From: a virus
Lineage: Duplodnaviria; Caudoviricetes
IMG/VR virus record: IMGVR_UViG_3300014656_006081
Coordinates: 1-39,806 of that record
Strand: one strand, 5' to 3'
Length of the DNA stretch: 39,806 nt
Shown: in pieces, positions 2,006 through 35,844 of the stretch
Layout of the letters: every line of letters begins with the position of its first letter
How positions within the stretch are numbered: position 1 is the first letter of the stretch
Program-made: the position numbers and the translations under genes
Notes under the pieces: generated by a model
What the model saw: the letters and a program-made list of their open reading frames with translations, nothing else
The model's database searches: none
What the model was told of the DNA's origin: nothing

Positions 2006-3439
2006 ATGAACGTGCTTGAGCTGTTGCAGGCTGACGGCATCTCGCCCCGCAAGGTGTCCGGTTCCAAGGGCGGTGAGTACCATAGCCCCTGCCCCGGCTG
2101 CGGCGGTACGGATCGCTTTCACTGCTGGCCCGAACAGAACGGTGGGGAGGGCAGCTGGTGGTGCCGTGGCTGCGACGCGGGCGGTGACTCAATCCAGTAC
2201 CTGGTGGATTTCCGGGGAATGGCCTTTCGCGCTGCTGCCGCCTTTGTGGGGCGCAAGCTGGAGCCCTGCGCCTCCTCCCGTCCGTTGCAGCCGCCCCGGC
2301 GTCCCAGCGAGGCCGCTCCGTGGCAACCAGAGCCCGCCCGTGAGCCTTCCGAGCGCTGGCGCACCCGAGCGGGCGAACTGGTGGCCGCAGCCCATGCACA
2401 GCTCCTGCGTACCCCTGAGCCCTTGGAGTATCTCGCCCGGCGTGGCCTGCCCCTGGAAGCCGTCGAGCGCTACCGCCTGGGCTGGCTGCCCGAGGACGTG
2501 TACCGCGAGCGTTCAGCCTGGGGACTGCCGCACGAGATGAACCCGCGCACGGGCAAGCCACGCAAGTTGTGGATCCCGGCTGGCCTGGTGATCCCCATCT
2601 TCCATGGCGGGCAACTGCACCGCGTGCGTGTGCGCCGCCCCAAGCCTGGCCCGTTCGGGCCGAAGAAATATTGTTGGGTGCCGGGCAGCGGCAGCGGGGT
2701 CATGGTCCTCTCTCCCAATGCCCGGGCCTTTGTGGCCGTGGAGGCGGAGCTGGACGCCATGCTCTGCGACTTTGCCACAGGCGATGCGGTGGGCGCTCTG
2801 GGGTTGGGCACCATCTCCGCCAAGCCGGATGTCTGGACGCATGGGATCCTGACCAGATCCCTGGCCATTCTGAACGCACTGGATTTTGAGTCCAGCGTCC
2901 CGGCGGGCACCGGCGAGGCGGCCCAGCTGGAAGCCGAGCGCAAGATGCGCCAGCAGCGCCAGGTGCGCGACTGGTGGCAGGCGACCTACGACCATGCCGA
3001 GCGCTGGCCGGTGCCCGAGGCCAAGGACCCCGGCGAAGCCTTCGCGGCGGGTGTGAACATCGCGGACTGGATCAAGGCGGGCCTGCCGCCGGTCATGCTC
3101 ATGCCTGCGGCCCCGGCGCGTCCCGTCGCTCCCCAATCTTCTCCCGAGGCTCCGGCCCCGGTCCGGCCTGTCGTTTCTCAAGCCATCCCCGAGGCCCCGG
3201 CCTCGTCCTCTGGTTCCAAGGCCGCCAGCTTGGCCGCCCTGGAGCGCCTGCTGCGCGAGACCGGCATCCGGCTGACGTTTAACGGCTCGCGGCCCTTTGA
3301 AATCCCCAAGCCTCTCCAGGGCCATACTGGCATCCTACGGCGGCTGAAGGAGTTGTGCTTCCAGGACGACGAGCTGGGGGCCTATCTGGACCGCCATCCC
3401 GACGCGATCATCACGGCGGAGAACCTGGTGGTGAGGTGA
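2006..3439 (+). CDS. Zinc-finger DNA primase (P4-alpha-type Zn finger plus Toprim-like domain)
   Basis: CPGCGGTDRF...WWCRGC Zn finger, EYLARRGL, VEAELDA, KDPGEA; GGAGG RBS before ATG 2006. Confidence 0.8.
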   Translation: MNVLELLQADGISPRKVSGSKGGEYHSPCPGCGGTDRFHCWPEQNGGEGSWWCRGCDAGGDSIQYLVDFRGMAFRAAAAFVGRKLEPCASSRPLQPPRRPSEAAPWQPEPAREPSERWRTRAGELVAAAHAQLLRTPEPLEYLARRGLPLEAVERYRLGWLPEDVYRERSAWGLPHEMNPRTGKPRKLWIPAGLVIPIFHGGQLHRVRVRRPKPGPFGPKKYCWVPGSGSGVMVLSPNARAFVAVEAELDAMLCDFATGDAVGALGLGTISAKPDVWTHGILTRSLAILNALDFESSVPAGTGEAAQLEAERKMRQQRQVRDWWQATYDHAERWPVPEAKDPGEAFAAGVNIADWIKAGLPPVMLMPAAPARPVAPQSSPEAPAPVRPVVSQAIPEAPASSSGSKAASLAALERLLRETGIRLTFNGSRPFEIPKPLQGHTGILRRLKELCFQDDELGAYLDRHPDAIITAENLVVR

Positions 3440-3652
3440 GAACGATGGTCAGGCTGGAATGGTGGCGAGGTGCGCCGGGCATCCGGGGCAGTCCGGAGCC
3501 CCGGCGAAGGAAGGAAAGTGAGGGCTGCCATGCGGAGCTGTTACCTCGGCATGGCGACCGGATAACGAAGGTATCCGATCAAGGTTCAACCTCAGCCCTC
3601 CTCCCGGCTCGCGGTGCGATGCGGTGAGGGGGGACTATCAGGAAAAGATCGG

Positions 3653-4999
3653 ATGGAAAAGCTGAAGCTCGAAATGTGGCCCGTTGCAAGGCTGCGTCCG
3701 TATGAAAGGCGACTGAGAAAGAACGAGAAAAACGTGGAACGCATGGTCTGCTGCATCGAAGAATATGGGTTTCGGATGCCCATCCTGGCGCTGGCCAGCG
3801 GCGAGGTCGTCGATGGCGACCTGCGCCTGAAGGCCGCCCTGCAGATGGGGCTGGAATCCGTCCCGGTGATCCTTGCAGAGGGCATGAGCGATGAGCAGGT
3901 CCGTGCGTTTCGCATCATGGCGAACAGTTCCGTGGCCTGGTCCAAGTGGAATGACGAAGAGCTCGCGCGCGAATTGCGGGAGCTGTGGGCGGCGGACTTC
4001 AGCCTTGAGCTGACCGGCCTGCCCCTGTCCGAGATCGAGGATCTCCTCGAAACGTTCGGGGAGGCGGACGCAGGGGCGGATCCCGACGCAATGCCGGTGC
4101 CAGGCCCCTGCGTCTCCCGTCCTGGGGATCTGTGGCAGCTTGGGGTGCATCGTCTGCTCTGTGGTGATTCCACCAGCGCGGCCGATGTGCGGCGGCTCAT
4201 GGACGTCGAACAGGCCGACATGATCTGGACCGATCCGCCCTACAACGTGGATTACCACGGCAAGGCGGGGAGCATCCAAAATGACAGCCTGCCGGACGCG
4301 GAGTTTCGGCGTTTCCTGCGGGATGCCTTCGCCGCGATGTTTGGGGTGCTGCGCAAGGGTGGGGCGGCGTATGTGGCGCATGCCGACACCGAGGGCCTGA
4401 ACTTCAGGGGTGCGTTTTGCGAGGTCGGGTTCAAGCTCGCGTCCTGTCTGGTCTGGCGCAAGGACCATTTCGTCCTGGGCCGCGCGGATTACCAGTGCCA
4501 ACACGAGCCGATTCTCTACGGCTGGAAGCCGGGGGCCGCGCATCGTTGGTTTGGAGGTCGCAAGCGCAAGACCCTCCAGGAGCTGGGTGGCCTTGGCCAT
4601 GTGAGTGTGTCCCCGGATGGAAGCGTGTCTCTGTTTCTCGACGATCGCGCCCTGCGCATCACCGGGCAGGACCTGGCTGTGGAGGATCTGGAAACCACGC
4701 TGGCCTTCGAGGAAAAGCCACGCAGCTCGGAACTGCATCCCACCATGAAGCCCGTTGCCCTTGTGGAACGCTTTCTCAAGAACAGCAGCCTGAAAGGCGA
4801 CTGCGTGCTTGATCCGTTTGGCGGATCGGGGACCACGCTCATCGCCTGCGAACGGACGAGGCGCCGATGCCGGACCATGGAGCTGGACCCCAAATACGCG
4901 GACGTCATCGTACGGCGGTGGCAGGAGTTCGCGGGGCAGGATGTGGTGCATGCCACGAGCGGCGAAACCTTTGCCCAGCGTGAGGCCGTCAATGGATAG
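3653..4999 (+). CDS. ParB-N-fused amino-methyltransferase (N6-adenine/N4-cytosine, beta class)
   Basis: ParB-like N-terminus (VVDGDLRLKAA), HRLLCGDS, TDPPYNV, HPTMKPV, LDPFGGSGTT, ELDPKY. Confidence 0.92.
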   Translation: MEKLKLEMWPVARLRPYERRLRKNEKNVERMVCCIEEYGFRMPILALASGEVVDGDLRLKAALQMGLESVPVILAEGMSDEQVRAFRIMANSSVAWSKWNDEELARELRELWAADFSLELTGLPLSEIEDLLETFGEADAGADPDAMPVPGPCVSRPGDLWQLGVHRLLCGDSTSAADVRRLMDVEQADMIWTDPPYNVDYHGKAGSIQNDSLPDAEFRRFLRDAFAAMFGVLRKGGAAYVAHADTEGLNFRGAFCEVGFKLASCLVWRKDHFVLGRADYQCQHEPILYGWKPGAAHRWFGGRKRKTLQELGGLGHVSVSPDGSVSLFLDDRALRITGQDLAVEDLETTLAFEEKPRSSELHPTMKPVALVERFLKNSSLKGDCVLDPFGGSGTTLIACERTRRRCRTMELDPKYADVIVRRWQEFAGQDVVHATSGETFAQREAVNG

Positions 5000-5732
5000 G
5001 CAGATGCTCGAGGAGCTCCTCGAACGCAGCGCCGAGACGGATATCCCCACGTTGCTCAAGGCCAAGGAAGAAGCCAAGCGCAGGATGCGCAACGATCCCT
5101 CCCCGCAGAACGTCTCCGTCTTTGAGAAGGCGTCGCGCATGATGGAGGCTCGAATGGGCAAGACAGACCATGTGCAGACGGAGAATCTGGCCAGCATCAC
5201 CGCAGTGCTGGAATACCTGTTGGACTGCGGTCGCAAGGTGAGGAAATCCAAGCTGTATCAGGATGTGAAAACCGGACTGCTCGCGCGGCAGCCCGGCGGC
5301 GGGTTCAGCAAGGCCGCCGTGGACGCCTACGCGCAGGCGCTGCCGCTGGTGGCCGTGCCCAAGGTGGACTCCGACAATATCAAGGAGCTGGCTAGGCGCA
5401 GGCAGGAAGCCACCATTCAGAAGATCGAGGAGGAGACCGCGCGGATCCGCTTCAAGCGGGAGGCGGAGCGTGGCCGCTTCATCCCTCGCGAGCAGGTGGA
5501 GCTGGAGCTGGCGGGCCGGGCCGTGGTTTTGGAAACAGGCCTCCGGCAGGCCGTGGAGATGAACGTGCTGGATCTGATCCATCTGGTGGACGGGGATCCG
5601 CGCAAGTCGCAGCGGTTTTTGGAAGTGTTCGAAGGCTATCTCAATGAGGCGCTGAACCAGTTTGCAAGCAAGGCAGAATTCGAGGTGACGTTTACAGATG
5701 CTGATTCAGGAAATGAAACCGAAACAGAATAG
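4992..5732 (+). CDS. Probable terminase small subunit
   Basis: Directly upstream of and overlapping the large subunit; Nu1-like coiled C-terminus (REAERGRFIPREQV). Confidence 0.65.
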   Translation: MDRQMLEELLERSAETDIPTLLKAKEEAKRRMRNDPSPQNVSVFEKASRMMEARMGKTDHVQTENLASITAVLEYLLDCGRKVRKSKLYQDVKTGLLARQPGGGFSKAAVDAYAQALPLVAVPKVDSDNIKELARRRQEATIQKIEEETARIRFKREAERGRFIPREQVELELAGRAVVLETGLRQAVEMNVLDLIHLVDGDPRKSQRFLEVFEGYLNEALNQFASKAEFEVTFTDADSGNETETE

Positions 5733-8704: not shown

Positions 8705-10855
8705 TTATAAAGAATCAAGTTCAGCAAGTAGTTTTTCAGCATCAATAGGTTCAACGAATTTAACTGTGAGTTGATCCTCCAAACCGAAAACAGAAAGGGC
8801 CTCCTTAATTATTTTGAACTTATCTGTACTGTTCTTGTTAGTCTCGATAAAATGAGAACTTGAAATTTCTTTTGGCTCTCGTAGTTCATTTTCATCAGTC
8901 TTCAAATTGAACATCTCCGCTATATGCGGTTTTATAAATTCGTCTGGCAAAATCTCATATAATTTTTTGAATACACTTACATATAATTCAGTAATATTAC
9001 TTACCCGAATTTTGACACCAAGAAAAATTGCATACTCTAATTTTCTGTGCGTTGGAGAGTCAACACTGAATATATTTACTTCACCATTTAGCAAATCATT
9101 TTTATTGTGCTCTTCTGAGTATGATTTGATTCCATAGGCATCAATAAATACATTCAAAAGTTTAAGCGCCCTGTCACGAATCTCTTCTTCGCCGAATGTT
9201 TCATAGCCAAGAAGAAGTTTATTTAAGTTAATCCGTGATACATCACTAAGTATCTTTTTTTTCTCGACAAAGGACTTATTGCTAAGGCCTTGGTTGTCAA
9301 GCGTTATAGAAAGATTTCCTAATGTATGTAGATATCTTTCGTGGACATCTTTAGGAATTTTCCATTCTGGCGACAAAGTCTGAGGCATAATATGCTCAAT
9401 CTGACACTTTTCCAAATCTCGCTCGAATGAAAGAAGTTCTTTTTTATTAATGTTTTCAATCAATATTAAGAATTTTAATGTTTGCTTCTTTAACCTGTTG
9501 TAGAGGTCAATTTCAACAACGTTACGCGTTAACTGCTTGAGACTAGGCTGCCGATAGCCTTCTGGTGCTGAAGTAACTAGCTTTTCAAATGCGACAGCAT
9601 AGTCGCGGCGATAATCAGAAAATTCATTTTTTAGTTTCTTTGGGATCGTGGGTATAAACCTTGTGATTTGCTTCGTAGGAAGCCCTCCAAGTAAACGACA
9701 CGCGTCGTAAGCTACAACCTTTTTCAAAGCCCTATTCAAGCCATTAACGTCATCAACAATAATACTTCCATTTTCAATTGTAGCATGCTTATCAATAATA
9801 TCCATTAAAAGTGTCGAGTATGTTGAAAACGAAGATCGCAAATACTCAATACTGTTTTGATCGATATCTTTATGTGAATTTACACGAATTGTTTGATAAA
9901 TAATCGCCCATTTTGTAATGTCAAATATTAATTCTTTGCATTGTTTAAATCCTTCAATTTCGCCAACAAATGTTTTAAAAGTATAATATATAATTTTTGG
10001 ATCACGATTTACAAGTACAAATGTTTTTACTGCTATGTATTGACGAAAAAATAATTCTAACTCATCTTCTACTTTTTTTTCATTAGAAAATAATGATTCA
10101 AAATTTTTTATGTAAAGATTTGTTAGCTGTTCCTTTTCTGTTGTACTGAAATGATTATTCTTAAATGTAAAAATGAAATTTTTTATCAAATCAGAACTAG
10201 AAAGCGGTTTGCCAAGTGAATTTATAGATTCAAATACGGAGTTTTCATCTTGTGCATCATCTAGGAATATTATAACTACCTTGACTCTATCAAGAATATT
10301 TACAAATGATATAAAATCATCTGGTTTCATTCCACCAAGTCTTTTGAGAAGATACTGATAGTTTTCAAAATATTTAGTCTTTTTGTCATCTGCTGTGATT
10401 GTGTCTATTGCGCCAGTTAATAGTTTGCTTAACGAATTCTGATTCTCCATGTTGTTGAGCTTTAGTTTCACGATGCCATCATTATCCGTAAATAATGCTC
10501 TGCTAATATTTTTTGCAGCTTGTATAGCTTCATTTGTTTTAATAATATTTAAGTATATGTCGCGGATCGCACATAACACGAGAATAGTTGTTGTGATGCG
10601 CTGTTGGCCATCAATAATCACACGCTCGTCTTGAAAAGCACGAGTTCGATTTTTTACAATTATATTCCCAATATAGTATTCAGATTTTGTGTTTTCATCA
10701 TATTCTCGACCGAATTCAATAATATCATTGATCAATTTTTCAACATGTTTCTTTGCTTCCCAAGTATAGGTGCGCTGATATGTTGGAATTTGGAATTGTG
10801 CGTTATCGCCAATAATCAATTTTTTAATGTCTTTATGTCCGGATTCAATCGTCAT
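8705..10855 (-). CDS. DUF262 + DUF1524(HNH) GmrSD/SspE-like protein with extra C-terminal domain
   Basis: IPTYQRTYTW, IIDGQQRITT, FESINSLGKPL, IEHIMPQ, LHTLGNL, LSNKSF; low GC; GGAGG RBS. Confidence 0.9.
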   Translation of the reverse strand: MTIESGHKDIKKLIIGDNAQFQIPTYQRTYTWEAKKHVEKLINDIIEFGREYDENTKSEYYIGNIIVKNRTRAFQDERVIIDGQQRITTTILVLCAIRDIYLNIIKTNEAIQAAKNISRALFTDNDGIVKLKLNNMENQNSLSKLLTGAIDTITADDKKTKYFENYQYLLKRLGGMKPDDFISFVNILDRVKVVIIFLDDAQDENSVFESINSLGKPLSSSDLIKNFIFTFKNNHFSTTEKEQLTNLYIKNFESLFSNEKKVEDELELFFRQYIAVKTFVLVNRDPKIIYYTFKTFVGEIEGFKQCKELIFDITKWAIIYQTIRVNSHKDIDQNSIEYLRSSFSTYSTLLMDIIDKHATIENGSIIVDDVNGLNRALKKVVAYDACRLLGGLPTKQITRFIPTIPKKLKNEFSDYRRDYAVAFEKLVTSAPEGYRQPSLKQLTRNVVEIDLYNRLKKQTLKFLILIENINKKELLSFERDLEKCQIEHIMPQTLSPEWKIPKDVHERYLHTLGNLSITLDNQGLSNKSFVEKKKILSDVSRINLNKLLLGYETFGEEEIRDRALKLLNVFIDAYGIKSYSEEHNKNDLLNGEVNIFSVDSPTHRKLEYAIFLGVKIRVSNITELYVSVFKKLYEILPDEFIKPHIAEMFNLKTDENELREPKEISSSHFIETNKNSTDKFKIIKEALSVFGLEDQLTVKFVEPIDAEKLLAELDSL

Positions 10856-27437: not shown

Positions 27438-28433
27438 ATGGAAGCGAAACTGCACAAGCCCGCATTCCGCATCGTGGCCAATGGCGACGACATCACCGCG
27501 ACCATCCGCAAGCGGTTCATTTCCCTGTCCATCACCGACGAGGCCGGGATGCAGTCCGACAGCCTGTCACTGGTCCTGGACGACTCCCCGCCGCATATCA
27601 GGCTCCCGGCCCAGGGGGCGGAGCTGCGTGTCTGGCTCGGCTATGAGCCGTCGGTCCGGTTCATGGGGCTGTATGTGGTGGACGAGATCGGGCTGAGCCT
27701 ATCGCCGGCACGCATGACCATCAAGGCGGCGGGTGCGCCCTTTGAGAAAAGCACGGCCTACCGGGAGCTGCAAACACAGCAGACACGTTCCTGGACGCCG
27801 CGCACGGTGCGAGAATTGGTGGAAGCGATTGCCTCCGAGCATGGCCTGACGCCTGCGGTTGGCCCGGAGATCGGCAAGATTACATTGCCGCACGTGGACC
27901 AGATCAACGAATCAAATATGCACCTGCTGACGCGCCTGGCCATGGACATGGACGCCGTGGCCAAGGCCAATGGCGGGAGCTTGATCTTTGTGAAAAAGGG
28001 ACAGGGCCAGACCGCCTCCGGCAAGGAGCTGGAGCGGATCTCGCTCGTGCCCGGGGACGTCACCAGTTGCAGCGTGACCATCTCGGGCCGTCAAAATTAT
28101 AAGACCGTTGTGGCCACCTGGCGCGATGTAGACGCCGCCAGAGACGTGGAGGAATGCGCAGGCGAGGGCGAGCCCACCTGCCGGATTCGTCATGCCTTCC
28201 CGACACGAGACGCTGCTCAGCAGGCCGCACGCGCGAAGCTGGAGGCCTTCCAGCGTGGCAAGGCGAGCCTTTCCCTGAGTCTTCCTGGTCGCCCGGGGGT
28301 CATGGCGGAGAGTCGCCTTGTCCTGGGCGGTGGCTTCCGCGAGGGCATGGCCAGGGAATGGAGCGTGACGCGGGTGGTTCACAGCCTGGGTGGCGGTGGG
28401 CTGGTGTTGAGCATGGATGGGGAAGGGATTTAA
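27438..28433 (+). CDS. Baseplate hub / late control protein gpD
   Basis: ITDEAGMQSD, LGY, DQINES, VVHSL. Confidence 0.92.
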   Translation: MEAKLHKPAFRIVANGDDITATIRKRFISLSITDEAGMQSDSLSLVLDDSPPHIRLPAQGAELRVWLGYEPSVRFMGLYVVDEIGLSLSPARMTIKAAGAPFEKSTAYRELQTQQTRSWTPRTVRELVEAIASEHGLTPAVGPEIGKITLPHVDQINESNMHLLTRLAMDMDAVAKANGGSLIFVKKGQGQTASGKELERISLVPGDVTSCSVTISGRQNYKTVVATWRDVDAARDVEECAGEGEPTCRIRHAFPTRDAAQQAARAKLEAFQRGKASLSLSLPGRPGVMAESRLVLGGGFREGMAREWSVTRVVHSLGGGGLVLSMDGEGI

Positions 28434-28528
28434 GAATTTTGATTACCTACTCGGTTGTTGTGCTCCATCGGAATTGCTGACGTTAAAATTCGTCTAGTGT
28501 TTAGAAAAAAAATCAACTGAGCCGGGAG

Positions 28529-28634
28529 GTGACCAATGCGGTCGGCCTGCCCTGGGTTGAAGTAGTAGACGTCTTAGGAAGTTGGGGCATTATCATTCCA
28601 GTACAGGACTGAAAATTCCCCACCAAGGCTGGGG
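28529..28634 (+). pseudogene. Gene-end scar, copy 1 (VTNAVGLPWVEVVDVLGSWG) plus hairpin
   Basis: 33/47 ungapped identity of 28541-28587 to 29888-29934; 17/23 of 28593-28615 to 29936-29958; identical TCCCCACCAAGG. Confidence 0.65.
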
Positions 28635-28888
28635 TGATGCGTTTCGGATTCAATAGTATGCGCAGTTATGTCGGAAGTATTCTGGCCAAGTCTGGTGTAT
28701 CCATGAAGGTCATCCAGAGGATCCTGCACCACAAGTCGCTGGCCCACACCGAGAAAAATGTGCGTGGGCTTGGTGTTGACATGAGTAGCACCATCAGTAC
28801 GATTGAGCAGAGCATTGTCCTGGATGCTCCCACACAAGCACCCACGCAATTGCGCCTGGTGAATAGACTTTTGTGGGCATGTCTTTAG
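28634..28888 (+). pseudogene. Decayed C-terminal fragment of a tyrosine recombinase
   Basis: FNSMRSYVGSIL...IQRILHHKSLAHTEKNV fits the HxLRH...LGH...Y box with the first His and the catalytic Tyr replaced; no N-terminal part. Confidence 0.75.
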
Positions 28889-28914
28889 CCAGGGCAACAA
28901 GTAGCGAGGATCAT

Positions 28915-29784
28915 ATGTCGGATCATGATGTCTTATTCTATTTTGATGAGTCTGGTGATTTTGGGTATCTTGAAAAAGAGCCCAAACCGGGATCGTTTGG
29001 GGTTGTCGCAGGCTTTGCATTCCCCACTCGGCACTTAAGTGACTATTCAAGTGTACTAAACAAATTATACTCCAGTTTAGACAAAGAAAACTGTTCTAAA
29101 GTTAGGTCTGCATTTGTTTTTGTCGGAGACCGAAATGAAAGAGTGCTAAACGAATACTTAGAGTTCTTTCTGCATAGCGAGATATTGATAGTCTATGAAG
29201 CTATTTGCCTATCTGGTGCTTATATTAACATGCAAGAAAGTGAATTCATAAAACAGAAATTTTCTGTGCCTAAGAATGATAACTTCGTTAGAGTGACTAA
29301 ATCACAGCAAAATGACATCTATCATTCTGTTTTTGAGCGAGTGGTAATAAAATTAGACGAGATATGTAAGATCGAAGGTGATCACTCATCAGAAATGATT
29401 TCAGACAATATGGATAAATCAATCCTGCGGAAGGCAAGACAGAAGATCACCCACCTTTCCAAAGATCAGCATGTTTATACATACAAGGCAATTGATAAAC
29501 AAGAGAAGAAGGAAATTAAGACATCAATAGTGTTTAAATGTGACTATCCGGATTTGGCAGTGCAACATGTCAAGGGGTTAAGTCTGACAGACGACGTAGC
29601 AATGACCTTTGCAGCAGACTTGATTGCCAATTCAATATATCGACATTTAAAAATGAAAATTTTTGTGGGTAAAGAAAACGCATTGCACTCTCATGCAATG
29701 ATGCAAGATCATTATCTTGTTAATAGAATAGTATTTTTGAGCGATGATGACATGACAGATAAACTCTATAACCATAAGTGTTAA
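28915..29784 (+). CDS. DUF3800-family protein (RNase H-like acidic motifs)
   Basis: FYFDESGD at the N-terminus, MISD, FAADLIANSIYR at the C-terminus; GAGGA RBS; low GC. Confidence 0.75.
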   Translation: MSDHDVLFYFDESGDFGYLEKEPKPGSFGVVAGFAFPTRHLSDYSSVLNKLYSSLDKENCSKVRSAFVFVGDRNERVLNEYLEFFLHSEILIVYEAICLSGAYINMQESEFIKQKFSVPKNDNFVRVTKSQQNDIYHSVFERVVIKLDEICKIEGDHSSEMISDNMDKSILRKARQKITHLSKDQHVYTYKAIDKQEKKEIKTSIVFKCDYPDLAVQHVKGLSLTDDVAMTFAADLIANSIYRHLKMKIFVGKENALHSHAMMQDHYLVNRIVFLSDDDMTDKLYNHKC

Positions 29785-29798
29785 ACCTCGCTCAATAG

Positions 29799-29838
29799 TC
29801 CCACACAACTCCCCACTCACCTGCGCATGGTGAAGTAA
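29799..29838 (+). repeat. Second copy of the recombinase 3' end
   Basis: 29/36 identity to 28828-28863; PTQLPTHLRMVK versus PTQAPTQLRLVN. Confidence 0.75.
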
Positions 29839-29875
29839 ATCCTTAACGACGACAAAGCATTATCTTTTAACCTAT

Positions 29876-30013
29876 TTGATCAACGTCGTCGGATTGCCCT
29901 TGGCTCGTGTGTTAGAAGTCTAAGCATCTTGGGGGTCGTTCCAAGGCAAGGCTGAAAAATTGTACATTCGCGGTATGTTCCAGATAAACTCCCCACCAAG
30001 GGTGTGCCTGGGG
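29876..30013 (+). pseudogene. Gene-end scar, copy 2 (LINVVGLPLARVLEV*ASWG) plus hairpin
   Basis: Homologous to 28529-28634; contains an internal stop and a frameshift. Confidence 0.65.
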
Positions 30014-30045
30014 CAATGACTACAAATAGTTGCAGCTCAAAATAG

Positions 30046-30105
30046 CTGATCAACGTGGTTGGACTACCCTCGATGGTGGTGTTTGAAATGCTGAAGGTGA
30101 AGTAA
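30046..30105 (+). pseudogene. Gene-end scar, copy 3 (LINVVGLPSMVVFEMLKVK)
   Basis: First eight codons give the same peptide as copy 2 with only synonymous differences. Confidence 0.65.
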
Positions 30106-30119
30106 GGAATGATTTCTCA

Positions 30120-31649
30120 TTATGACTTACGCAAAAGAACACCCTCAACGTCCTGTCTAGATATATAGACGCCATGAACTCGTGTCGTTGGGTTGTTGGT
30201 TGTTTTTATCAGCATGTCCCCTGCTCCAAGTAGTGTTTCAGCGCCAGTTTCGTCAAGGATGATGGATGATTCTGTGCGTTTCTGTACTGTCAACGCTATA
30301 CGGGCTGGGATGTTACTGCGAATAAGACCACTGAACGTTTTTGCATCGGGACGTTGCGTTGCCATTACCAAATGGATGCCTGCGGCACGAGCTAGTTGGG
30401 CAAGTCGGACGATACTTTGTTCGAGGTCGTGGTCTTGGAGTACTAAGTCTGCCAATTCTTCGATAACAACCACGATATAAGGTAAGTTGACGCCCTTTTT
30501 TCGAGCTTCCTTTATGTTGGTAACATGTAACCCCTCAAGCATCGAATATCTTCGGTCCATTTCCTCGACCAAGTCCATAAGACGTTCTTTAGACGGGTCG
30601 TTTCCTGTGGCGACATCTCCACCGTAGAGGTATTTTGATCCTCTATAGACAGAGAGCTCCACTTGTTTGGGGTCAAGGAGTGCTAGTTGCAAATTATCAG
30701 GCGAATGCTGTAAAATTAGAGACAGGATCAGTGCATGAAGGCATACACTTTTACCCTGTCCGGTGGCTCCACCAACCAAAAGGTGTGGTGCTTCAGCTAA
30801 ATCAAAGGAAAAGGGTATCCCCATGGCATTAACACCTGGAAAGACGAGTAAACGATCTTGGTCATGTGGAATTGTCTGAATCCACTTGTCGAGCTGATCA
30901 AATGAATTATAAATCCAGGTTTTTTTGGGGCGCGGGATGTCTAAGAAAACAGTCTTGGCTTCGTCCCCATGACTCAAACTAGGACGTGCCTGCTGGAGAC
31001 TGAGTAGCAAGCTGAGTCGCTCAAGCCCTTTTTTCAGTTTGTCTAGTTGGTTTACATCCGACATCAGCACTTTATAGCGGGTGACTCGTGGGCCATGGAT
31101 GGTGTCTTTCACCTCAACTTTAACGCCGATGTCGGCGAGCGCCTTGACCAGTTGAGTGGAGATATCTTGTGGTGCGTCAACAGTCGTTGGCTCGGGCGTC
31201 GTGGTTGGCTCTGGTGCTGTTTCTGGAAGTTCGGCTCGGCGATTAATCAGTGTCTCCAAGAAACGGTCGAAATCTTCATCCTGAGATTGCCAATCCTCCA
31301 TTAGTAGGGTCACGCCGCGGTGCCAGTGATGTCGAATCTGGTTGCGGAAGGTGTCCATGGCTTCAATCGGCACATTGCTGTACATGATAGAATGAGTGAC
31401 TAGCATGCCAATCCATATGGGTACATCTTGCTGGGTGAACAATGAAGTTCCAGGAATCTCAAGGCCTTTTGCATCGATATTGTCTCCGCTTATGGCCCCG
31501 AGGGCAAGAGAGCGGCCGATTGCTAACCTCGCAACGCTGGCTTTGGTGGATAAGCCTAACACGTCCATTAAAGACATAGTAAATTCGTCTGCAGTTTTAC
31601 TAGTGCGGTATCGAGCACTCAGAATCTGCTGAATAGATAATCCGCTCAT
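30120..31649 (-). CDS. DndE-like domain fused to an FtsK/SpoIIIE motor
   Basis: N-terminal RYRTS...ASVARLAIGRSL...HWHRGV (DndE-like); Pro/Thr linker; HGPRVTRY, PHLLVGGATGQGKS, LLDPK, VVIEELAD, RAAGIHLVMATQRP, LLGAGDML. Confidence 0.85.
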   Translation of the reverse strand: MSGLSIQQILSARYRTSKTADEFTMSLMDVLGLSTKASVARLAIGRSLALGAISGDNIDAKGLEIPGTSLFTQQDVPIWIGMLVTHSIMYSNVPIEAMDTFRNQIRHHWHRGVTLLMEDWQSQDEDFDRFLETLINRRAELPETAPEPTTTPEPTTVDAPQDISTQLVKALADIGVKVEVKDTIHGPRVTRYKVLMSDVNQLDKLKKGLERLSLLLSLQQARPSLSHGDEAKTVFLDIPRPKKTWIYNSFDQLDKWIQTIPHDQDRLLVFPGVNAMGIPFSFDLAEAPHLLVGGATGQGKSVCLHALILSLILQHSPDNLQLALLDPKQVELSVYRGSKYLYGGDVATGNDPSKERLMDLVEEMDRRYSMLEGLHVTNIKEARKKGVNLPYIVVVIEELADLVLQDHDLEQSIVRLAQLARAAGIHLVMATQRPDAKTFSGLIRSNIPARIALTVQKRTESSIILDETGAETLLGAGDMLIKTTNNPTTRVHGVYISRQDVEGVLLRKS

Positions 31650-33718
31650 TGCCTTTTTCCTTCAAAATAGCAGCCTTCTTTGGCCGTAGTCCTACCTATG
31701 CCATCCCCTACATCTTGATACTCAAGGAGGTAAGTTTTAATGACACTTCCCTTGATTTGCTGGAAAAAATCGTAGTGGATTTCTTCGTCTTGGGAGAGAA
31801 GGATGACTTGACGTTGCTTGTCGTCTGTCCAGAAATTGAGAATATTTAGTCGATGTGTGCTGTCAAGGCGGCCCAGGGGGGTGTCTACGACCATAGGGGC
31901 GTTGACTCCAGAAACTTGCGCGAGGCCTGCGAGAAGTGCCGTAGCGAAGATTTGGTTTTCGCCTGCCGAACGATCAAAAGTAATTTCTTTATTGGATTTT
32001 CCGAGAATGCGAGATTGACCGTTGTCTAAGATTTCGATCTTAGCCACTTGGTCTTTGTGCGCAAGTTGCTTGTAAAATTTTGTCATTGCGGCTCCCAGTT
32101 CTTTGACCTTAAGTGGGAAGAGAGCCGGAATTAATTGATCAATCACTTTTCGTACGCGTTCTGATTTCTCAATGATAGTGCGAGCAGGGCTGGAGTCGTC
32201 CAGTTTTTTCTTTTCTCTTTCGTATTCAGCTTTTTGTGAAGACACTTTAGCTTCAAGAGCGATTCCAGCTCTGTCATCAATTCTCATTTGCTCTTGCAGA
32301 TGGTCAAGTCGGTCTTGGATTTCTTTTAACTCGTCTTTAAGGGTGGCAAGCGTGCCGTCTCGATCAATTCCTTCTATTTTGTAGATCCTTCTGGCAAGTT
32401 CATCGATGTGCTTGGATAGCTGCTTTTCCTCGCGCAAGAGAGAATGAATTTCTTGGCGACCAAGAGATATACTGTCCATGAACTCCAAAATCTTATGGCG
32501 TAATAATTCATGTAGATAACTGTGGATGATTACAGTAGCACAGTCTTCCGGTGGAGGGTAGAAAAGGCTAGCCCACGCAGAATCAATGCGTTGATGAATG
32601 GCTTCAACCTGTGCCTCAGTAAGATTTGGATTGATCTCAGGTGTTCTTTCATTGTTGAAGGCTGTTTTGAACTCAATTTTACGAGGTTCTAATGAACCTT
32701 TGTCTGCTTCCCATTTATAATAACGAATTTCCCCTTCAATTTGATTTTTGAATTTGTTCAAAATATCTTTAGATGCTAAGTGGAAGGGGAGTCGACCAGT
32801 AAGCAATTCTTCTAATTTTTTCCGACACTCTTTTATTTTATTTCTAAATTGCTCTCGCTCTTCAACCAAGTCTTTTACAGTAGCGATATCACCACCTCCG
32901 CCTCCAATTGTAGTGATGCGGTTTAGCAATGACTCGCGTTCAATTCTTAGCTCGGATTCCTTTTCTGTGGCGATAAAGATCTTTTCACGCGACGTGTTTA
33001 GTGACGCCTGGTCTTCCAATAATGTATCTAATAACTTATTCAGCTTGTTTTCATCAACAGTTACAACGCCGTTACGTTTTTGACCTGCAAAAGTGCGAAG
33101 CCGGTCGGAAAGCATCCGGAGAAGAACCACGCCAAGTAGTCCTTCGAGTCCTTGCTTCACTTGCTCCACGCGGCCTTGATCCGCCAGTTTTTTCACTTCT
33201 TCGCCATCAAAAAAGAAAAAAGGAGCAATGTGCGCGGGTACAAAAAAATCATCCAACATGTCTGAAAGATGAAAATTGTTTCTACCATCGAGTTTTGGAG
33301 TGCCTGGCACATCTCGGTCCAACTCGCGAACTACGGTTTCTTCTTCAGCAGTCCACGTCCCATTAGAGCGAAAGTACCACTTTCGTGAAATATCAAAGGC
33401 CACTGTCTTGGTCTTGTTAATGACGACTCGGAGCATCATCATGTCGCTTCCCTTGCGAAAAGCTTCACCATTGAAGGCGCGTTCCAAAAAAGTTGGATAA
33501 CCTTTCAAATCTTCAGTTTTTAGTCCGGCGCGGGCCAAGTGGTTTATGGCGTCTTTACCATAAAGGCAGAGGTATAGGGCTTCTAAAATTGAAGTTTTGC
33601 CATACCCATTCATGCCTCCAATGAGGACAATATTTTTACCGTCACACGCTTCTGGGAAGGTAAAGACTTGGTGTTCGTAAGACTTAAAGTTGGTCAGTTC
33701 AATTTTAGATATCCACAT
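31646..33718 (-). CDS. dndD: DndD-like SMC/ABC ATPase
   Basis: GGMNGYGKTS, FFFFDGE, long coiled coil, SAGENQI, VVDTPLGRLDSTHR, QVILLSQDEE. Confidence 0.92.
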   Translation of the reverse strand: MWISKIELTNFKSYEHQVFTFPEACDGKNIVLIGGMNGYGKTSILEALYLCLYGKDAINHLARAGLKTEDLKGYPTFLERAFNGEAFRKGSDMMMLRVVINKTKTVAFDISRKWYFRSNGTWTAEEETVVRELDRDVPGTPKLDGRNNFHLSDMLDDFFVPAHIAPFFFFDGEEVKKLADQGRVEQVKQGLEGLLGVVLLRMLSDRLRTFAGQKRNGVVTVDENKLNKLLDTLLEDQASLNTSREKIFIATEKESELRIERESLLNRITTIGGGGGDIATVKDLVEEREQFRNKIKECRKKLEELLTGRLPFHLASKDILNKFKNQIEGEIRYYKWEADKGSLEPRKIEFKTAFNNERTPEINPNLTEAQVEAIHQRIDSAWASLFYPPPEDCATVIIHSYLHELLRHKILEFMDSISLGRQEIHSLLREEKQLSKHIDELARRIYKIEGIDRDGTLATLKDELKEIQDRLDHLQEQMRIDDRAGIALEAKVSSQKAEYEREKKKLDDSSPARTIIEKSERVRKVIDQLIPALFPLKVKELGAAMTKFYKQLAHKDQVAKIEILDNGQSRILGKSNKEITFDRSAGENQIFATALLAGLAQVSGVNAPMVVDTPLGRLDSTHRLNILNFWTDDKQRQVILLSQDEEIHYDFFQQIKGSVIKTYLLEYQDVGDGIGRTTAKEGCYFEGKRQ

Positions 33719-33739
33719 AGTCGTTCCCCAAGTCGGTGG

Positions 33740-33940
33740 TTAGTCGATCAGACCAAGTATTTCTTCAATTCGGGGGTAAATGCCCGCAGCTCGTTCTTGG
33801 TGCTGGCGTTCTCGTTGGAGCATGACCAACTGTGTGATTACTTCCACGGGGACGTTGGCCTCCTTGCATATATTCTCAAGGATTGTATGGGCTTCGTCAT
33901 CGGCCCAAAGTGGAAGGTCGTTTAAGTAAGAACTATCCAT
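33740..33940 (-). CDS. 66-aa dnd-associated small protein
   Basis: ATG overlaps the end of dndC, purine-rich RBS; ILENICKEANVP...IEEIL. Confidence 0.75.
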   Translation of the reverse strand: MDSSYLNDLPLWADDEAHTILENICKEANVPVEVITQLVMLQRERQHQERAAGIYPRIEEILGLID

Positions 33941-35090
33941 TGGCCAGTCCCTTCTCTTCCTGGAGCTCTGTTGCCCAGTGTTGATGGATGAGGTCAATTT
34001 CTTCAGCCGAAATTAATTGGTGCCCATAGGCCTTCTGAACTAATAGTAGGCGGTCAAGAATTTGTTTTCGCGCTTGGATGGTGAATGGTCCAGGGATATG
34101 ATTACCAGTTGCTCCGAATGTCAGTTTTCCATTGCGACGTATAGCTTGCCGCATGGTTAGGTCATTTCGAATTGCCCTAAGCCAGTCTCGGAAGTCGACA
34201 AGTGGTACGTATTGGTGTTTTCCAGCATCAACAAAGCCTTGAAGACTTTTGTCTTTTTCAACTACCGTACAGGTCCAGCAGCCAAATCTACTACTGGTCG
34301 TGCCGCAACCTGCAGCCTCATCAGAGGTGAGCATAACTGGGCATTCTCCACCTTTTGCATCTTTATAAAGCTGAACGAGATCAGCGTGTGATCCTCCCCA
34401 AGGTGCGTGGTAGCTCAAAAGTATTTCCCATATATCAGCTGTTGTTAGGTCGACAATTGGGCGATAAATATAAGCACCTGGGAGTTTTTCGTGTTCCGTG
34501 AGTCGTCCACCTCTGATGTTCCTGTATTTGTCGATGGATCGACGCCGGGAACTGCTCTCGTCACGTCGAACTCCCAGTACGACAATTACTGCACCTGATC
34601 GTGAAACTTGTTCTTTGATAAAACCGTTGGTCGGGAGGATTTTTAAACGATCAGTGCACCAACGCATTGTAGAGTTGGGGCTTGGGTAACCTTTTCCGAT
34701 GAGAAGTACCCAAAAGGAGTGATGGATATCGGGTTTTGTTCTAGCTACTGTGATTGGAAGGCCCAGGCTGCGTGCTGCCTCATCAATCCGACTTGTTACA
34801 TTATCCAAGTGGTTGATTACCAGAGGGCTTTCCACAAGCGTGTCGTTAGAAACTAAGTAAATATGTCGGGTGCGCTTGAATGGGGAGACCTCGAGGATAG
34901 CTTCAAATACGGCATGGGCAACTACTGTGCTGTCTTTGCCTCCAGAGAAGCCAATAACCCAAGGGTGGTTGTTTGTTGGATCAAGGTATTCTTCCTTGAT
35001 TTCATCAATAACCGTTCTCCAGCATTCATCAATAGGGAGGCCATCGATGGTCCCTTGGAGATTTTCTTCAATATTGCATGCGTGATTCAA
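33933..35090 (-). CDS. dndC: DndC-like sulfurtransferase (PAPS reductase family)
   Basis: PWVIGFSGGKDS PP-loop, NDTLVESP, GYPSP, RWCTDRLKI, GECP, SRFGCWTCTVV; TTG start uncertain. Confidence 0.93.
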   Translation of the reverse strand: MNHACNIEENLQGTIDGLPIDECWRTVIDEIKEEYLDPTNNHPWVIGFSGGKDSTVVAHAVFEAILEVSPFKRTRHIYLVSNDTLVESPLVINHLDNVTSRIDEAARSLGLPITVARTKPDIHHSFWVLLIGKGYPSPNSTMRWCTDRLKILPTNGFIKEQVSRSGAVIVVLGVRRDESSSRRRSIDKYRNIRGGRLTEHEKLPGAYIYRPIVDLTTADIWEILLSYHAPWGGSHADLVQLYKDAKGGECPVMLTSDEAAGCGTTSSRFGCWTCTVVEKDKSLQGFVDAGKHQYVPLVDFRDWLRAIRNDLTMRQAIRRNGKLTFGATGNHIPGPFTIQARKQILDRLLLVQKAYGHQLISAEEIDLIHQHWATELQEEKGLANG

Positions 35091-35409
35091 CGGTTTCTCG
35101 CTATTGTCTGGCTAAAAAAGGGGTGAAGTCTTCAACCCCTGAGTGGTTACCTCGTTCGATATGAAAACTCAAGATAAAGGGGCTCGTTTGAAGGCCAACT
35201 GGCGTTTGTCCAGAGAGGAAAGGGGCAAACGGTAATGTCATTAGTTGGCTCACCTGTCGTCAATGGCAGAAAAAAAAACCCGGTGAATATCTGTTGGTTT
35301 GTGTACTCTCGTGCCTTAGTAGGATATATCGGTTTGCCATTGTGAGTTGTTCAAAAAAGAGGCGTCAGTGTCCCGCGTGGGATGCCGTCGCCTTTGCATT
35401 TACCTGCTA

Positions 35410-35844
35410 TTAGCGTGAGCCGTCGTCGGTGCCTGTGGCGGGTTTCAGTGGAGATCTACCTCCCCCGATGTAATCGAGCAGAGCCTGCTTGATTTCTTCC
35501 TCACTGGTTTCAACCGATTTGAGCGCTGCCTTGATGTCTGCGAGTTCCTTTCCCAGCTCGGTCTTTGTCCCGGCGTCTTCGTTTCTGGGCTGCTCCTGTT
35601 CGTCTCGGAACATGGGGCCTTCGCCAAGAACAAGCCAGTTCATATCAATTCGATATTTCTCGGCCCATTTCGACAGAACAAGCATTGAAGGCTGACTTTC
35701 AGCCTTCAAGTAGGCTGTGACTGTTGGCGCTTGGATTTCTGCAATAGCAGCGAGTTCTTTTTGTTCTACGCCGAGCTCAACGATAACATCCCTTAGTCTT
35801 TGACTAAATGGCTGGAGCTCGGGTTTTCTTGTTTTAGGGGGCAT
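35410..35844 (-). CDS. XRE-family phage repressor (cI-like, no S24 peptidase)
   Basis: FSQRLR, QKELA HTH, NWLVLGEGPMF; divergent from a cro-like gene. Confidence 0.85.
   Translation of the reverse strand: MPPKTRKPELQPFSQRLRDVIVELGVEQKELAAIAEIQAPTVTAYLKAESQPSMLVLSKWAEKYRIDMNWLVLGEGPMFRDEQEQPRNEDAGTKTELGKELADIKAALKSVETSEEEIKQALLDYIGGGRSPLKPATGTDDGSR

What the first reader, a model, noticed from the sequence alone, without database searches (positions are those of the whole stretch)
30120..35090. Prophage-borne phosphorothioation-like operon: dndC - small protein - dndD - DndE::FtsK
Seen: four tightly coupled, low-GC genes, antisense to the tail genes, sitting between the tail module and the repressor. 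Known: DndC, DndD and DndE with a cysteine desulfurase (DndA or host IscS) write DNA phosphorothioates, and the usual partners are DndB and DndFGH or PbeABCD. None of those partners is in the window; a DNA translocase is built into the operon instead. Inference: a compact, phage-carried PT-like system in which writer and motor form one machine, acting either as anti-phage defence for the lysogen or as self-modification that shields the phage from host PT-dependent restriction. I cannot confirm that this arrangement is unreported.
Basis: partly seen in the sequence, partly recalled or inferred. Interest (0 to 1): 0.88.

Follow-up and report, generated by a model that had tools for sequence, protein, structure and literature searches.

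The report
Prophage sulfur-DNA writer with built-in motor
A complete prophage carries an intact four-gene cassette that likely marks DNA with sulfur and has a DNA motor fused to it, in the same slot where a sister prophage keeps a different, textbook sulfur-based defence system; the gene layout was already noted by genome comparison, but I found no experimental test of it.

Summary
Observation confirmed: dndC, a 66-aa Sp-DndD gene, dndD and dndE::ftsK form an intact, coupled, low-GC operon inside a complete 40.5-kb prophage. DndE-HerA/FtsK fusions beside DndD were already noted in silico (Rakesh 2024), and this scan met the cassette before on other DNA, once in a prophage.

Added here:
(1) The small protein is the split-off DndD-binding tail of DndC.
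(2) A model supports binding of the fused DndE to DndD's coiled-coil tip (0.75; best control 0.00), which would tether motor to writer.
(3) The same DndE head carries two barely alignable motors: FtsK alpha/beta (here; 6 of 43 full-length representatives) or HerA-like (36 of 43).
(4) A sister prophage at the same tRNA holds canonical dndBCDE plus pbeABCD in exactly this slot.
(5) No nuclease travels with the core, but another slot of this prophage encodes a DndI/SspE-family protein.

Best reading: a motor-tethered phosphorothioate writer (about 0.75) that likely defends the lysogen without a nuclease of its own (0.4). A reader acting in trans (0.25) and self-marking against restriction (0.2) remain open. 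The prophage location is not typical: 0 of 20 other loci lay among matching phage genes.

The parts
33933..35090 (-). dndC, 385 aa: PP-loop/PAPS-reductase-family sulfur transferase that ends where canonical DndC continues into its DndD-binding tail. Keeps SGGKDS and Cys145/250/262/271/274; specificity-loop triplet N139-S140-T141.
   Evidence: TIGR03183 373 bits over cut-off 290; alignment with a canonical Salmonella DndC numbered like E. coli B7A; loop and Cys roles from PMC12193691
33740..33940 (-). Small protein Sp-DndD, 66 aa from ATG 33940 (frame open from TTG 33997): the split-off C-terminal DndD-binding module of DndC
   Evidence: PF20306 54.6 bits; a profile of 12 small proteins hits Salmonella DndC 440-483 at 8.4 bits, reached by 0 of 2000 shuffles; PF20306 also hits full-length DndC of the sister prophage at 424-462, 30 bits; DndC 433-482 binds DndD per PMC12193691
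31646..33718 (-). dndD, 690 aa: Rad50-like ABC ATPase with coiled coil. Walker A 34-42, SAGE 584, VDTPLGRLD 611; no CxC or CxxC hook.
   Evidence: TIGR03185 over cut-off; invariant columns in 45 homologues; motif scan
30120..31649 (-). dndE::ftsK, 509 aa: DndE (about 1-140), flexible linker (144-154), FtsK alpha and beta motor (about 157-505). No gamma domain and no room for a nuclease domain.
   Evidence: Pfam; AF2 pLDDT 83.7 and Foldseek FtsK motor 6T8G E 2.5e-30; DndE fold; K300, E398, R421, Q432 invariant in 34 sequences; ends where host FtsK continues for about 100 aa
28873..29784 (+). DUF3800-family gene, GC 0.37, convergent with the operon, inside the same variable slot; not a conserved partner
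   Evidence: PF12686 21.7 bits; Atlas hits 0.94-0.96; no BLAST match in 20 other cassette loci
28404..35349 (.). Variable cargo slot between gpD and the repressor: 6.9 kb here, 10.0 kb with dndBCDE and pbeABCD in the sister prophage of G001
   Evidence: blastn breaks at 28403 and 35350; PADLOC and Pfam of the sister genes; only two short nucleotide matches between the two cargoes
35410..35844 (-). Phage repressor (cI-like), co-oriented with and upstream of the operon
   Evidence: HTH_3 and RstR-type hits; 54% identical to the sister's repressor
27438..28433 (+). Tail hub gene gpD, other border of the slot
   Evidence: PF05954; 91% identical in the sister
8705..10855 (-). GmrSD/DndI/SspE-family protein (DUF262 NTPase with DGQQR, HNH-type C-terminal part), 716 aa, in a second low-GC slot; candidate reader in trans
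   Evidence: PF03235 and PF07510; best PADLOC hit Orf5, E 3e-73; the 594-aa gene beside Salmonella dndBCDE hits a 596-column Orf5 model at 888 bits; weak SspE match in PDB, E 2e-4

Best explanation
The four intact genes likely build one machine that writes phosphorothioate marks on the lysogen's DNA and likely uses its fused FtsK motor, rather than a nuclease, to hinder unmarked invading DNA. Shown by sequence: all four parts are intact and keep their catalytic motifs; the small protein is DndC's detached C-terminal module; the motor is an FtsK alpha/beta unit without gamma domain; the cassette occupies a slot that holds a complete Dnd-Pbe defence system in a sister prophage. Predicted: DndE grips the tip of DndD's coiled coil, so an FtsK ring is tied to the writer. 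Inferred: the small protein bridges DndC to the DndD head as the tail does in canonical DndC; sulfur comes from the host's IscS-type desulfurase; the ring pulls DNA past DndC; the marked site may be GATC (weak: loop triplet N-S-T resembles the N-Q-T of GATC writers). Least supported step: the motor is slowed by marks on self DNA and runs on unmarked phage DNA, disturbing its replication, by analogy to the PT-gated translocation of DndFGH. The writer-with-tethered-motor part deserves about 0.75; the whole statement 0.4.
For: Motifs intact. All four genes in the same order in 9 of 10 close loci, the tenth cut by its contig end, and in 5 of 5 distant loci with DndD at 28-30% identity. TusA sulfur carrier directly behind the fusion in 4 of 9 close loci with downstream flank and a desulfurase in the long form L165 point to sulfur chemistry. 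The host has one IscS-type gene; IscS replaces DndA in E. coli (PMC3519819). Complex DndD with DndE(1-142): score 0.75, best of 3 controls 0.00; this mark was reached by 116 of 157 solved complexes and 2 of 215 mismatched pairs; runs agree in at least 62% of contacts, partner pLDDT at least 80. The interface (DndD 299-326, 398-428) matches the coiled-coil-2 site of PMC12193691, and no DndD relative beyond Rad50 heads was found in the PDB copy. Slot: dndBCDE-pbeABCD in the sister; HNH-effector-, IetA- and PDC-S31-like genes behind gpD in 3 more distant prophage contigs. The motor was swapped under one DndE head, as in the defence protein DndH (PMC10853773). PT represses DndFGH translocation on self DNA (PMC11662687); Pbe blocks replication without visible cleavage (PMC6459918).
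Against: No experiment, and no expression data. No effector domain in any of the four proteins and no conserved partner: HNH genes in 2, DGQHR in 3, MORC pair in 1 of 10 close loci. Known PT defences (DndFGH, DndI, SspE, Pbe) all include a nuclease-domain protein. The long form L165 carries an AriA/PtuA-like ATPase pair, so the short form may have lost its effector. 2 of 5 distant copies are broken by insertions. In one gut survey 10 isolates with a minimal dndCD or sspBCD set showed no PT (PMC12914056). The desulfurase match does not show that the host enzyme serves this DndC.
Confidence: 0.4

Rival explanations
1. The cassette only writes the mark (the motor serves scanning or mark density), and a separate reader does the defence: here the DndI/SspE-family nickase at 8705-10855, or the DUF3800 protein; elsewhere the variable HNH, DGQHR or MORC neighbours.
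For: 8705-10855 has DGQQR and an HNH-type part and its best PADLOC hit is Orf5, the label carried by the DndI-sized gene beside Salmonella dndBCDE. DndI alone couples with IscS-DndBCDE (PMC11662687). Rakesh et al. propose that variable neighbouring nucleases are the restriction arm.
Against: The gene sits 19 kb away in a separately exchanged slot; the sister has a NACHT/pentapeptide pair there. A match to it lies near only 1 of 20 other cassette loci, a match to the window's DUF3800 near none. It is far from the Salmonella-type Orf5 model (E 3.6e-26) and gave no DndI hit in the PDB copy. Several loci (L164, L178, L179, L181) show no nuclease of the panel.
Confidence: 0.25
2. The cassette is a self-marking device of mobile DNA: it puts sulfur on phage or plasmid DNA so that it passes PT-dependent barriers of new hosts, including lysogens of the sister prophage.
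For: Patchy, low-GC cargo of plasmids, islands and a prophage. PT-modified virus escapes DndCDEA-PbeABCD (PMC6459918). The sister prophage in the same genus carries such a barrier. Lone DndC-like genes occur in phage genomes (PMC12429752).
Against: The operon runs with the repressor, against the late genes. Loop triplets differ (N-S-T here, Y-R-N in the sister), so the marks may not cross-protect. No copy in 50,697 phage records or in three IMG/VR scans aimed at it.
Confidence: 0.2
3. It is a reduced remnant of a longer system that lost its effector, or it does something other than PT writing, and gives no defence.
For: The long form L165 has two ATPase-DndE pairs plus an ATPase-partner pair; broken copies exist (L175).
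Against: The same four-gene form recurs from 28% to 73% DndD identity with intact frames; 664 DndD-like clusters at E<=1e-40 among 7,997 candidates scored and 260 fusion clusters among 6,247; DndC keeps every cluster cysteine.
Confidence: 0.15

Closest known systems
DndE-HerA/FtsK fusion subset of Dnd systems (HerA/FtsK 'clade-3' of Rakesh, Aravind, Krishnan 2024, PMC10853773, citing Krishnan 2020; Pfam PF20306)
   Same: DndE fused to a HerA/FtsK ATPase directly after a DndD-related ABC ATPase; small Sp-DndD gene; computational description only.
   Different: The motor here has an FtsK-alpha domain and groups beside cellular FtsK, far from the HerA-like motors of most such fusions. The paper's main text lists alpha domains only for cellular FtsK, some DndH and an Orc/Cdc6-linked set. 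Which motor its clade-3 means could not be checked (supplement unreadable). The word prophage does not occur in its main text.
Canonical IscS/DndA-DndBCDE (E. coli B7A, Salmonella Cerro 87)
   Same: DndC PP-loop and cysteines, DndD ABC motifs, DndE fold, predicted DndD-DndE interface.
   Different: No DndB; DndC split into enzyme and tail; DndE fused to a motor; no DndFGH.
DndCDEA-PbeABCD (PMC6459918) and the sister prophage's dndBCDE-pbeABCD
   Same: PT writer in a defence setting; PADLOC files this DndD under PbeC model PDLC02733 (973 bits).
   Different: No PbeA (HKD nuclease-helicase), no CxC hook, small protein is Sp-DndD not Sp-CxC; the PbeC label looks like a library artefact.
DndFGH, SspFGH, DndI, SspE readers
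   Same: FtsK/HerA motor as in DndH and SspH (SspH models hit the motor only).
   Different: No restriction-nuclease, kinase or wHTH parts; the motor is on the writer side.
TdpABC and BREX type 4 (PMC12914056 passages; Tdp translocase and nuclease recalled)
   Same: Compact PAPS-reductase-family PT writer together with a ring motor.
   Different: No Tdp or Brx proteins; DndD and DndE are retained.

Membership tests
Dnd PT modification module | DndC with PP-loop and 4Fe-4S cysteines | tested here: met
   SGGKDS; C145, C262, C271, C274 match B7A C146, C273, C280, C283
Dnd PT modification module | DndC C-terminal DndD-binding module | tested here: met
   present as a separate gene; binding itself not modelled
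Dnd PT modification module | DndD-clade ABC ATPase with intact motifs | tested here: met
   TIGR03185 over cut-off; motifs invariant
Dnd PT modification module | DndE fold paired with DndD | tested here: met
   Foldseek 7X4E and 4LRV ranked first; complex 0.75 against best control 0.00
Dnd PT modification module | Cysteine desulfurase (DndA or host IscS) | tested here: inconclusive
   none in the prophage; one host gene, 37% to the L165 desulfurase; use by this DndC untested
Dnd PT modification module | PT dinucleotides in DNA | not testable with these tools
   needs LC-MS/MS or iodine cleavage
Canonical DndBCDE-DndFGH | DndB and DndFGH | tested here: not met
   no DGQHR (TIGR03187) or DndH (PDLC02684) match in G000, 99.97% complete; DndF and DndG not searched
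PbeABCD / CxC system | PbeA nuclease-helicase, CxC zinc hook, Sp-CxC | tested here: not met
   no PbeA, PbeC or PbeD match with the sister's proteins; no CxC or CxxC in DndD; small protein is PF20306
DndE-HerA/FtsK fusion subset (Rakesh 2024) | DndE fused to a HerA/FtsK ATPase next to a DndD-related gene | tested here: met
DndE-HerA/FtsK fusion subset (Rakesh 2024) | Motor belongs to their clade-3 | tested here: inconclusive
   motor has an alpha domain and no DndH-model hit, whereas the HerA-type fusions hit DndH models; their dataset unreadable
Cellular FtsK | Membrane anchor and gamma domain; membership of the cellular clade | tested here: not met
   neither domain present; 15 cellular motors form their own branch (support 100) without it
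Anti-phage defence system | Reduces phage plating | not testable with these tools
   only the slot context supports it

The most novel reading that the evidence does not exclude
A nuclease-free phosphorothioate immunity machine in which one FtsK motor both drives the sulfur writer along self DNA and jams unmarked phage DNA, used by a temperate phage whose sister fills the same slot with a different sulfur system, so that sister prophages of sulfate reducers compete through incompatible sulfur marks.
Probability: 0.25. Interest if true: 0.8.

Novelty: new variant of a known kind. Interest (0 to 1): 0.5.

Why it matters
Hundreds of sequence clusters carry this cassette, yet my searches found no experimental study of it. 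If four genes suffice for defence, it would be a PT system without a nuclease. If they only write, it shows how a motor changes the density of PT marks, which canonical systems place on only 10-15% of sites (PMC11662687). The two sister prophages (82-91% nucleotide identity, same tRNA site) give a ready comparison of two PT systems in one phage backbone. That is notable because dnd clusters and prophages were reported to avoid each other across genomes (PMC8569181). The split DndC tail is a natural tool for testing how DndC docks on DndD.

Tried and rejected
1. The only genome-contig scan and one viral scan drew patterns from the motor core; none of the 80 loci kept in each matched residues 1-99, so they gave no cassette loci (some served as cellular FtsK controls).
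2. Viral scans with the fusion, its N-terminal alignment and the DndD alignment and tblastn of the DndE domain against 50,697 phages found nothing. These scans depend on short exact patterns and do not show absence.
3. DndE-domain search of whole genomes: 0 of 150 relatives, 0 of 5, 0 of 30, 5 of 401, 0 of 401, 1 of 400 in the phylum.
4. The profile comparison was circular (the alignment held the target) and is discarded; one search replaces it.
5. The 'wFdom' query was out of frame and is ignored; motors were typed. My note 2 misread the loop triplet; corrected in note 3.
6. No TusA gene or remnant found behind the fusion in the window.
7. Promoter and terminator scans gave no more than chance (7 against 10.2; 11 against 8.0). 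Tetramer bias for GATC, GAAC, GGCC and KOPS counts were uninformative.
8. No RNA holder listed. Contig depth of prophage and host flank was alike in run X1 (about 17), a possible source of this DNA; contigs cannot show induction.
9. 'Recently captured cellular FtsK' was rejected: the fused motors lie outside the cellular branch.
10. 'PbeC, hence a Pbe system' was rejected (no hook, no PbeA).
11. The DndE tree rests on 146 columns with long branches; two rows (P0255, P0341) were left out. It does not show how many swaps occurred.
12. Krishnan 2020 and the supplement of Rakesh 2024 could not be read; either may already list this exact subtype.
Full report
OBSERVATION. The four genes are real, intact and coupled. 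Their GC is 0.459, against 0.644 for the phage backbone and 0.608 for the genome. Family scans name them DndC, Sp-DndD, DndD and DndE::FtsK-alpha::FtsK, each at or over its curated cut-off. The window is almost a whole 40.5-kb prophage with lambda-type head and contractile-tail genes, bounded by a perfect 51-bp repeat at tRNA-Arg(TCT). The genome (99.97% complete) has no second dndC, dndD or dndE and no match to DndB, DndH or PbeA/C/D with the queries used, so this is not a fragment of a chromosomal cluster. The host's own FtsK groups tightly with that of a Maridesulfovibrio record, so the host is probably a Desulfovibrionaceae-type sulfate reducer (inference).

ANATOMY OF THE WRITER. DndC keeps the PP-loop and the cysteines that match E. 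coli B7A C146, C262, C273, C280 and C283; the Salmonella DndC used as a ruler has the same numbering (PMC12193691 Results read). It stops at 385 aa, where canonical DndC goes on. The next gene supplies that part: a profile of 12 small proteins aligns to Salmonella DndC 440-483 (8.4 bits; 0 of 2000 shuffles reach it), and Pfam's Sp-DndD model hits the tail of the sister prophage's full-length DndC over cut-off. Fu et al. place the first DndC-DndD interface at DndC 433-482 and broke it with a triple change at L458, E462, R471; the leucine is kept here. The specificity triplet is N-S-T; close relatives have N-M-T, N-L-T, N-Q-S or N-Q-Q, nearest to the N-Q-T that Fu et al. list for GATC writers. 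That is a weak hint. DndD has complete ABC motifs and no CxC hook, so PADLOC's PbeC label does not make it a Pbe system.

ANATOMY OF THE FUSION. The model (pLDDT 83.7) shows DndE, a loose linker and an FtsK alpha/beta motor that superposes on solved FtsK motors. The N-terminal domain alone ranks DndE crystals first. Walker A K300, E398, R421 and Q432 are invariant in 34 sequences. There is no gamma domain (its role in directional loading is recalled, not tested) and no spare domain that could be a nuclease. The complex model of DndD with DndE(1-142) scored 0.75, best of 3 controls 0.00; this mark was reached by 116 of 157 solved complexes and 2 of 215 mismatched pairs, counts that hold only roughly for my alignments; runs agree in at least 62% of contacts and the partner's pLDDT is at least 80. 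The contacts lie at DndD 299-326 and 398-428, the coiled-coil tip that binds DndE in pull-downs of the canonical complex. This supports a tether; it does not show binding.

RELATIVES. The N-terminal 260 residues found 260 clusters among 6,247 candidates; DndD found 664 at E<=1e-40 among 7,997 scored. Ten close loci were read: three plasmids (one with a duplicate record) and seven metagenome contigs, two of them near-identical. All four genes stand in the same order in 9 of 10; the tenth is cut by its contig end. TusA follows the fusion in 4 of 9 with downstream flank, but not in the window. Other neighbours vary: DGQHR in 3, HNH in 2, a MORC pair in 1 of 10. Five distant loci (5 of 401 genomes) have the same four genes with DndD at 28-30% identity; two are broken by insertions. 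A long form (L165) has a desulfurase, two ATPase-DndE pairs and an AriA/PtuA-like ATPase with a partner. None of the 20 loci matched the window's phage structural or regulatory proteins, so a prophage home is the exception.

TWO MOTORS. Of 131 representatives at 50% identity, 43 are full length: 6 carry the FtsK alpha/beta motor, 36 a HerA-like motor that barely aligns to it, 1 is unclassified. No longer fusion was seen except one 704-aa protein with what looks like a DndD piece in front. In the motor tree the HerA types lie on a long branch of their own, and the alpha/beta types lie beside but outside 15 cellular FtsKs. In the DndE tree 12 alpha/beta types fall in one branch with 4 HerA types, inside the HerA types (support 94/85). 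So the motor was exchanged under a constant DndE head; how often is not resolved. That the cassette keeps a motor of either kind argues that translocation itself is selected (inference).

THE SLOT. Genome G001, same genus, has a sister prophage at the same tRNA, 82-91% identical over the backbone. Identity breaks at window 28403 and 35350. In between, the sister has dndB, dndC, dndD, dndE behind gpD and PbeA, an Sp-CxC-like gene, a PbeC-like ATPase and a 155-aa likely PbeD behind the repressor (PbeD by position only). The two DndCs are 39% and the DndDs 25% identical, so the two sulfur systems came in separately. The window's operon lies where the sister's Pbe arm lies, co-oriented with the repressor. 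In three more distant prophage contigs the genes behind gpD hit defence models. A second slot holds a DUF262-HNH protein here and a NACHT/pentapeptide pair in the sister. Its best PADLOC hit is Orf5, the label also given to the 594-aa gene beside Salmonella dndBCDE, which I take to be DndI by size and position (inference). This family is common in defence islands (recalled), so the link is a lead only.

MECHANISM. Most likely the host desulfurase loads DndC, the small protein ties DndC to the DndD head, DndD's tip holds DndE, and the FtsK ring draws DNA past the writer. I put this at about 0.75. For what the mark is for, I commit to nuclease-free defence of the lysogen (0.4 overall), because the core recurs without any fixed partner, sits in a defence slot, and PT is known to gate the DndFGH translocase. 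The rivals are a reader in trans (0.25), self-marking against PT barriers (0.2; PT-modified virus escapes Pbe) and a remnant (0.15).

WHAT IS KNOWN. Rakesh et al. 2024 (abstract, passages and sections 11, 13, 14, 16, 17, 22 and part 1 of 23 read) state that DndE-HerA/FtsK fusions occur next to DndD-related ATPases and cite Krishnan 2020, which I could not read; their supplement was unreadable and may list this subtype. Passages only were seen of PMC8569181, PMC12914056, PMC12429752, PMC12707154, PMC6459918, PMC3519819 and PMC11662687. Nine searches of the held library showed no experimental study of the fusion and no full Dnd operon reported in a prophage; lone DndC or SspD genes in prophages are reported. 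The library lacks most subscription journals. Earlier notes of this scan describe the same cassette on other DNA, one in a prophage with TusA; none came up for the sister-slot swap.

VERDICT. Real, and a variant of a kind described only by computation. The motor swap, the split DndC tail with a modelled tether, and the sister prophage with another PT system keep it worth a bench test: interest 0.5.

Noticed in passing
L194:6999-16818 (G001 sister prophage): A complete dndBCDE plus pbeABCD-type system inside a prophage, between repressor and gpD; the IMG/VR contig L187 ends right after its dndB, so such cargo can be clipped from viral catalogues.
   Followed up: yes
window 8705-10855: GmrSD/DndI/SspE-family gene with a weak SeqA C-terminal match at 659-700 (E 8e-4; SeqA binds GATC, recalled) in a second exchangeable slot between terminase and portal.
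   Followed up: partly
window 3614-4999: ParB-N fused DNA methyltransferase; the stretch 3437-5144 is missing from the sister prophage.
   Followed up: partly
L195:14171-17429: NACHT and pentapeptide-repeat gene pair in the sister's second slot.
   Followed up: no
L162, L163, L168, L165, L186: A DGQHR gene, mostly with a small membrane-protein gene, recurs near these cassettes in varying order and orientation.
   Followed up: partly
L165:5485-16209 and L175: Long form with desulfurase, DndC, two ATPase-DndE pairs, FtsK fusion and an AriA/PtuA-like ATPase with an unknown partner; L175 is a fragmented copy.
   Followed up: partly
L170:11656-13906: MORC-type ATPase and Methyltransf_35 pair directly behind the cassette.
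   Followed up: no
L176:1710-2669 and hits: Lone DndC-like PAPS-reductase genes in phage genomes (Thermus phage Tsatsa; Pseudomonas and Rhizobium phages), possible phage self-markers.
   Followed up: partly
window about 35350-35395: GC-rich hairpin with a T run behind the repressor gene, shared with the sister, just before the cargo begins; seen by eye, not called by the terminator scan.
   Followed up: no
PADLOC models PDLC02733, PDLC02736, PDLC02721: Models labelled PbeC fit the DndD-type ATPases of these FtsK/HerA cassettes best, which may cause false Pbe calls.
   Followed up: partly
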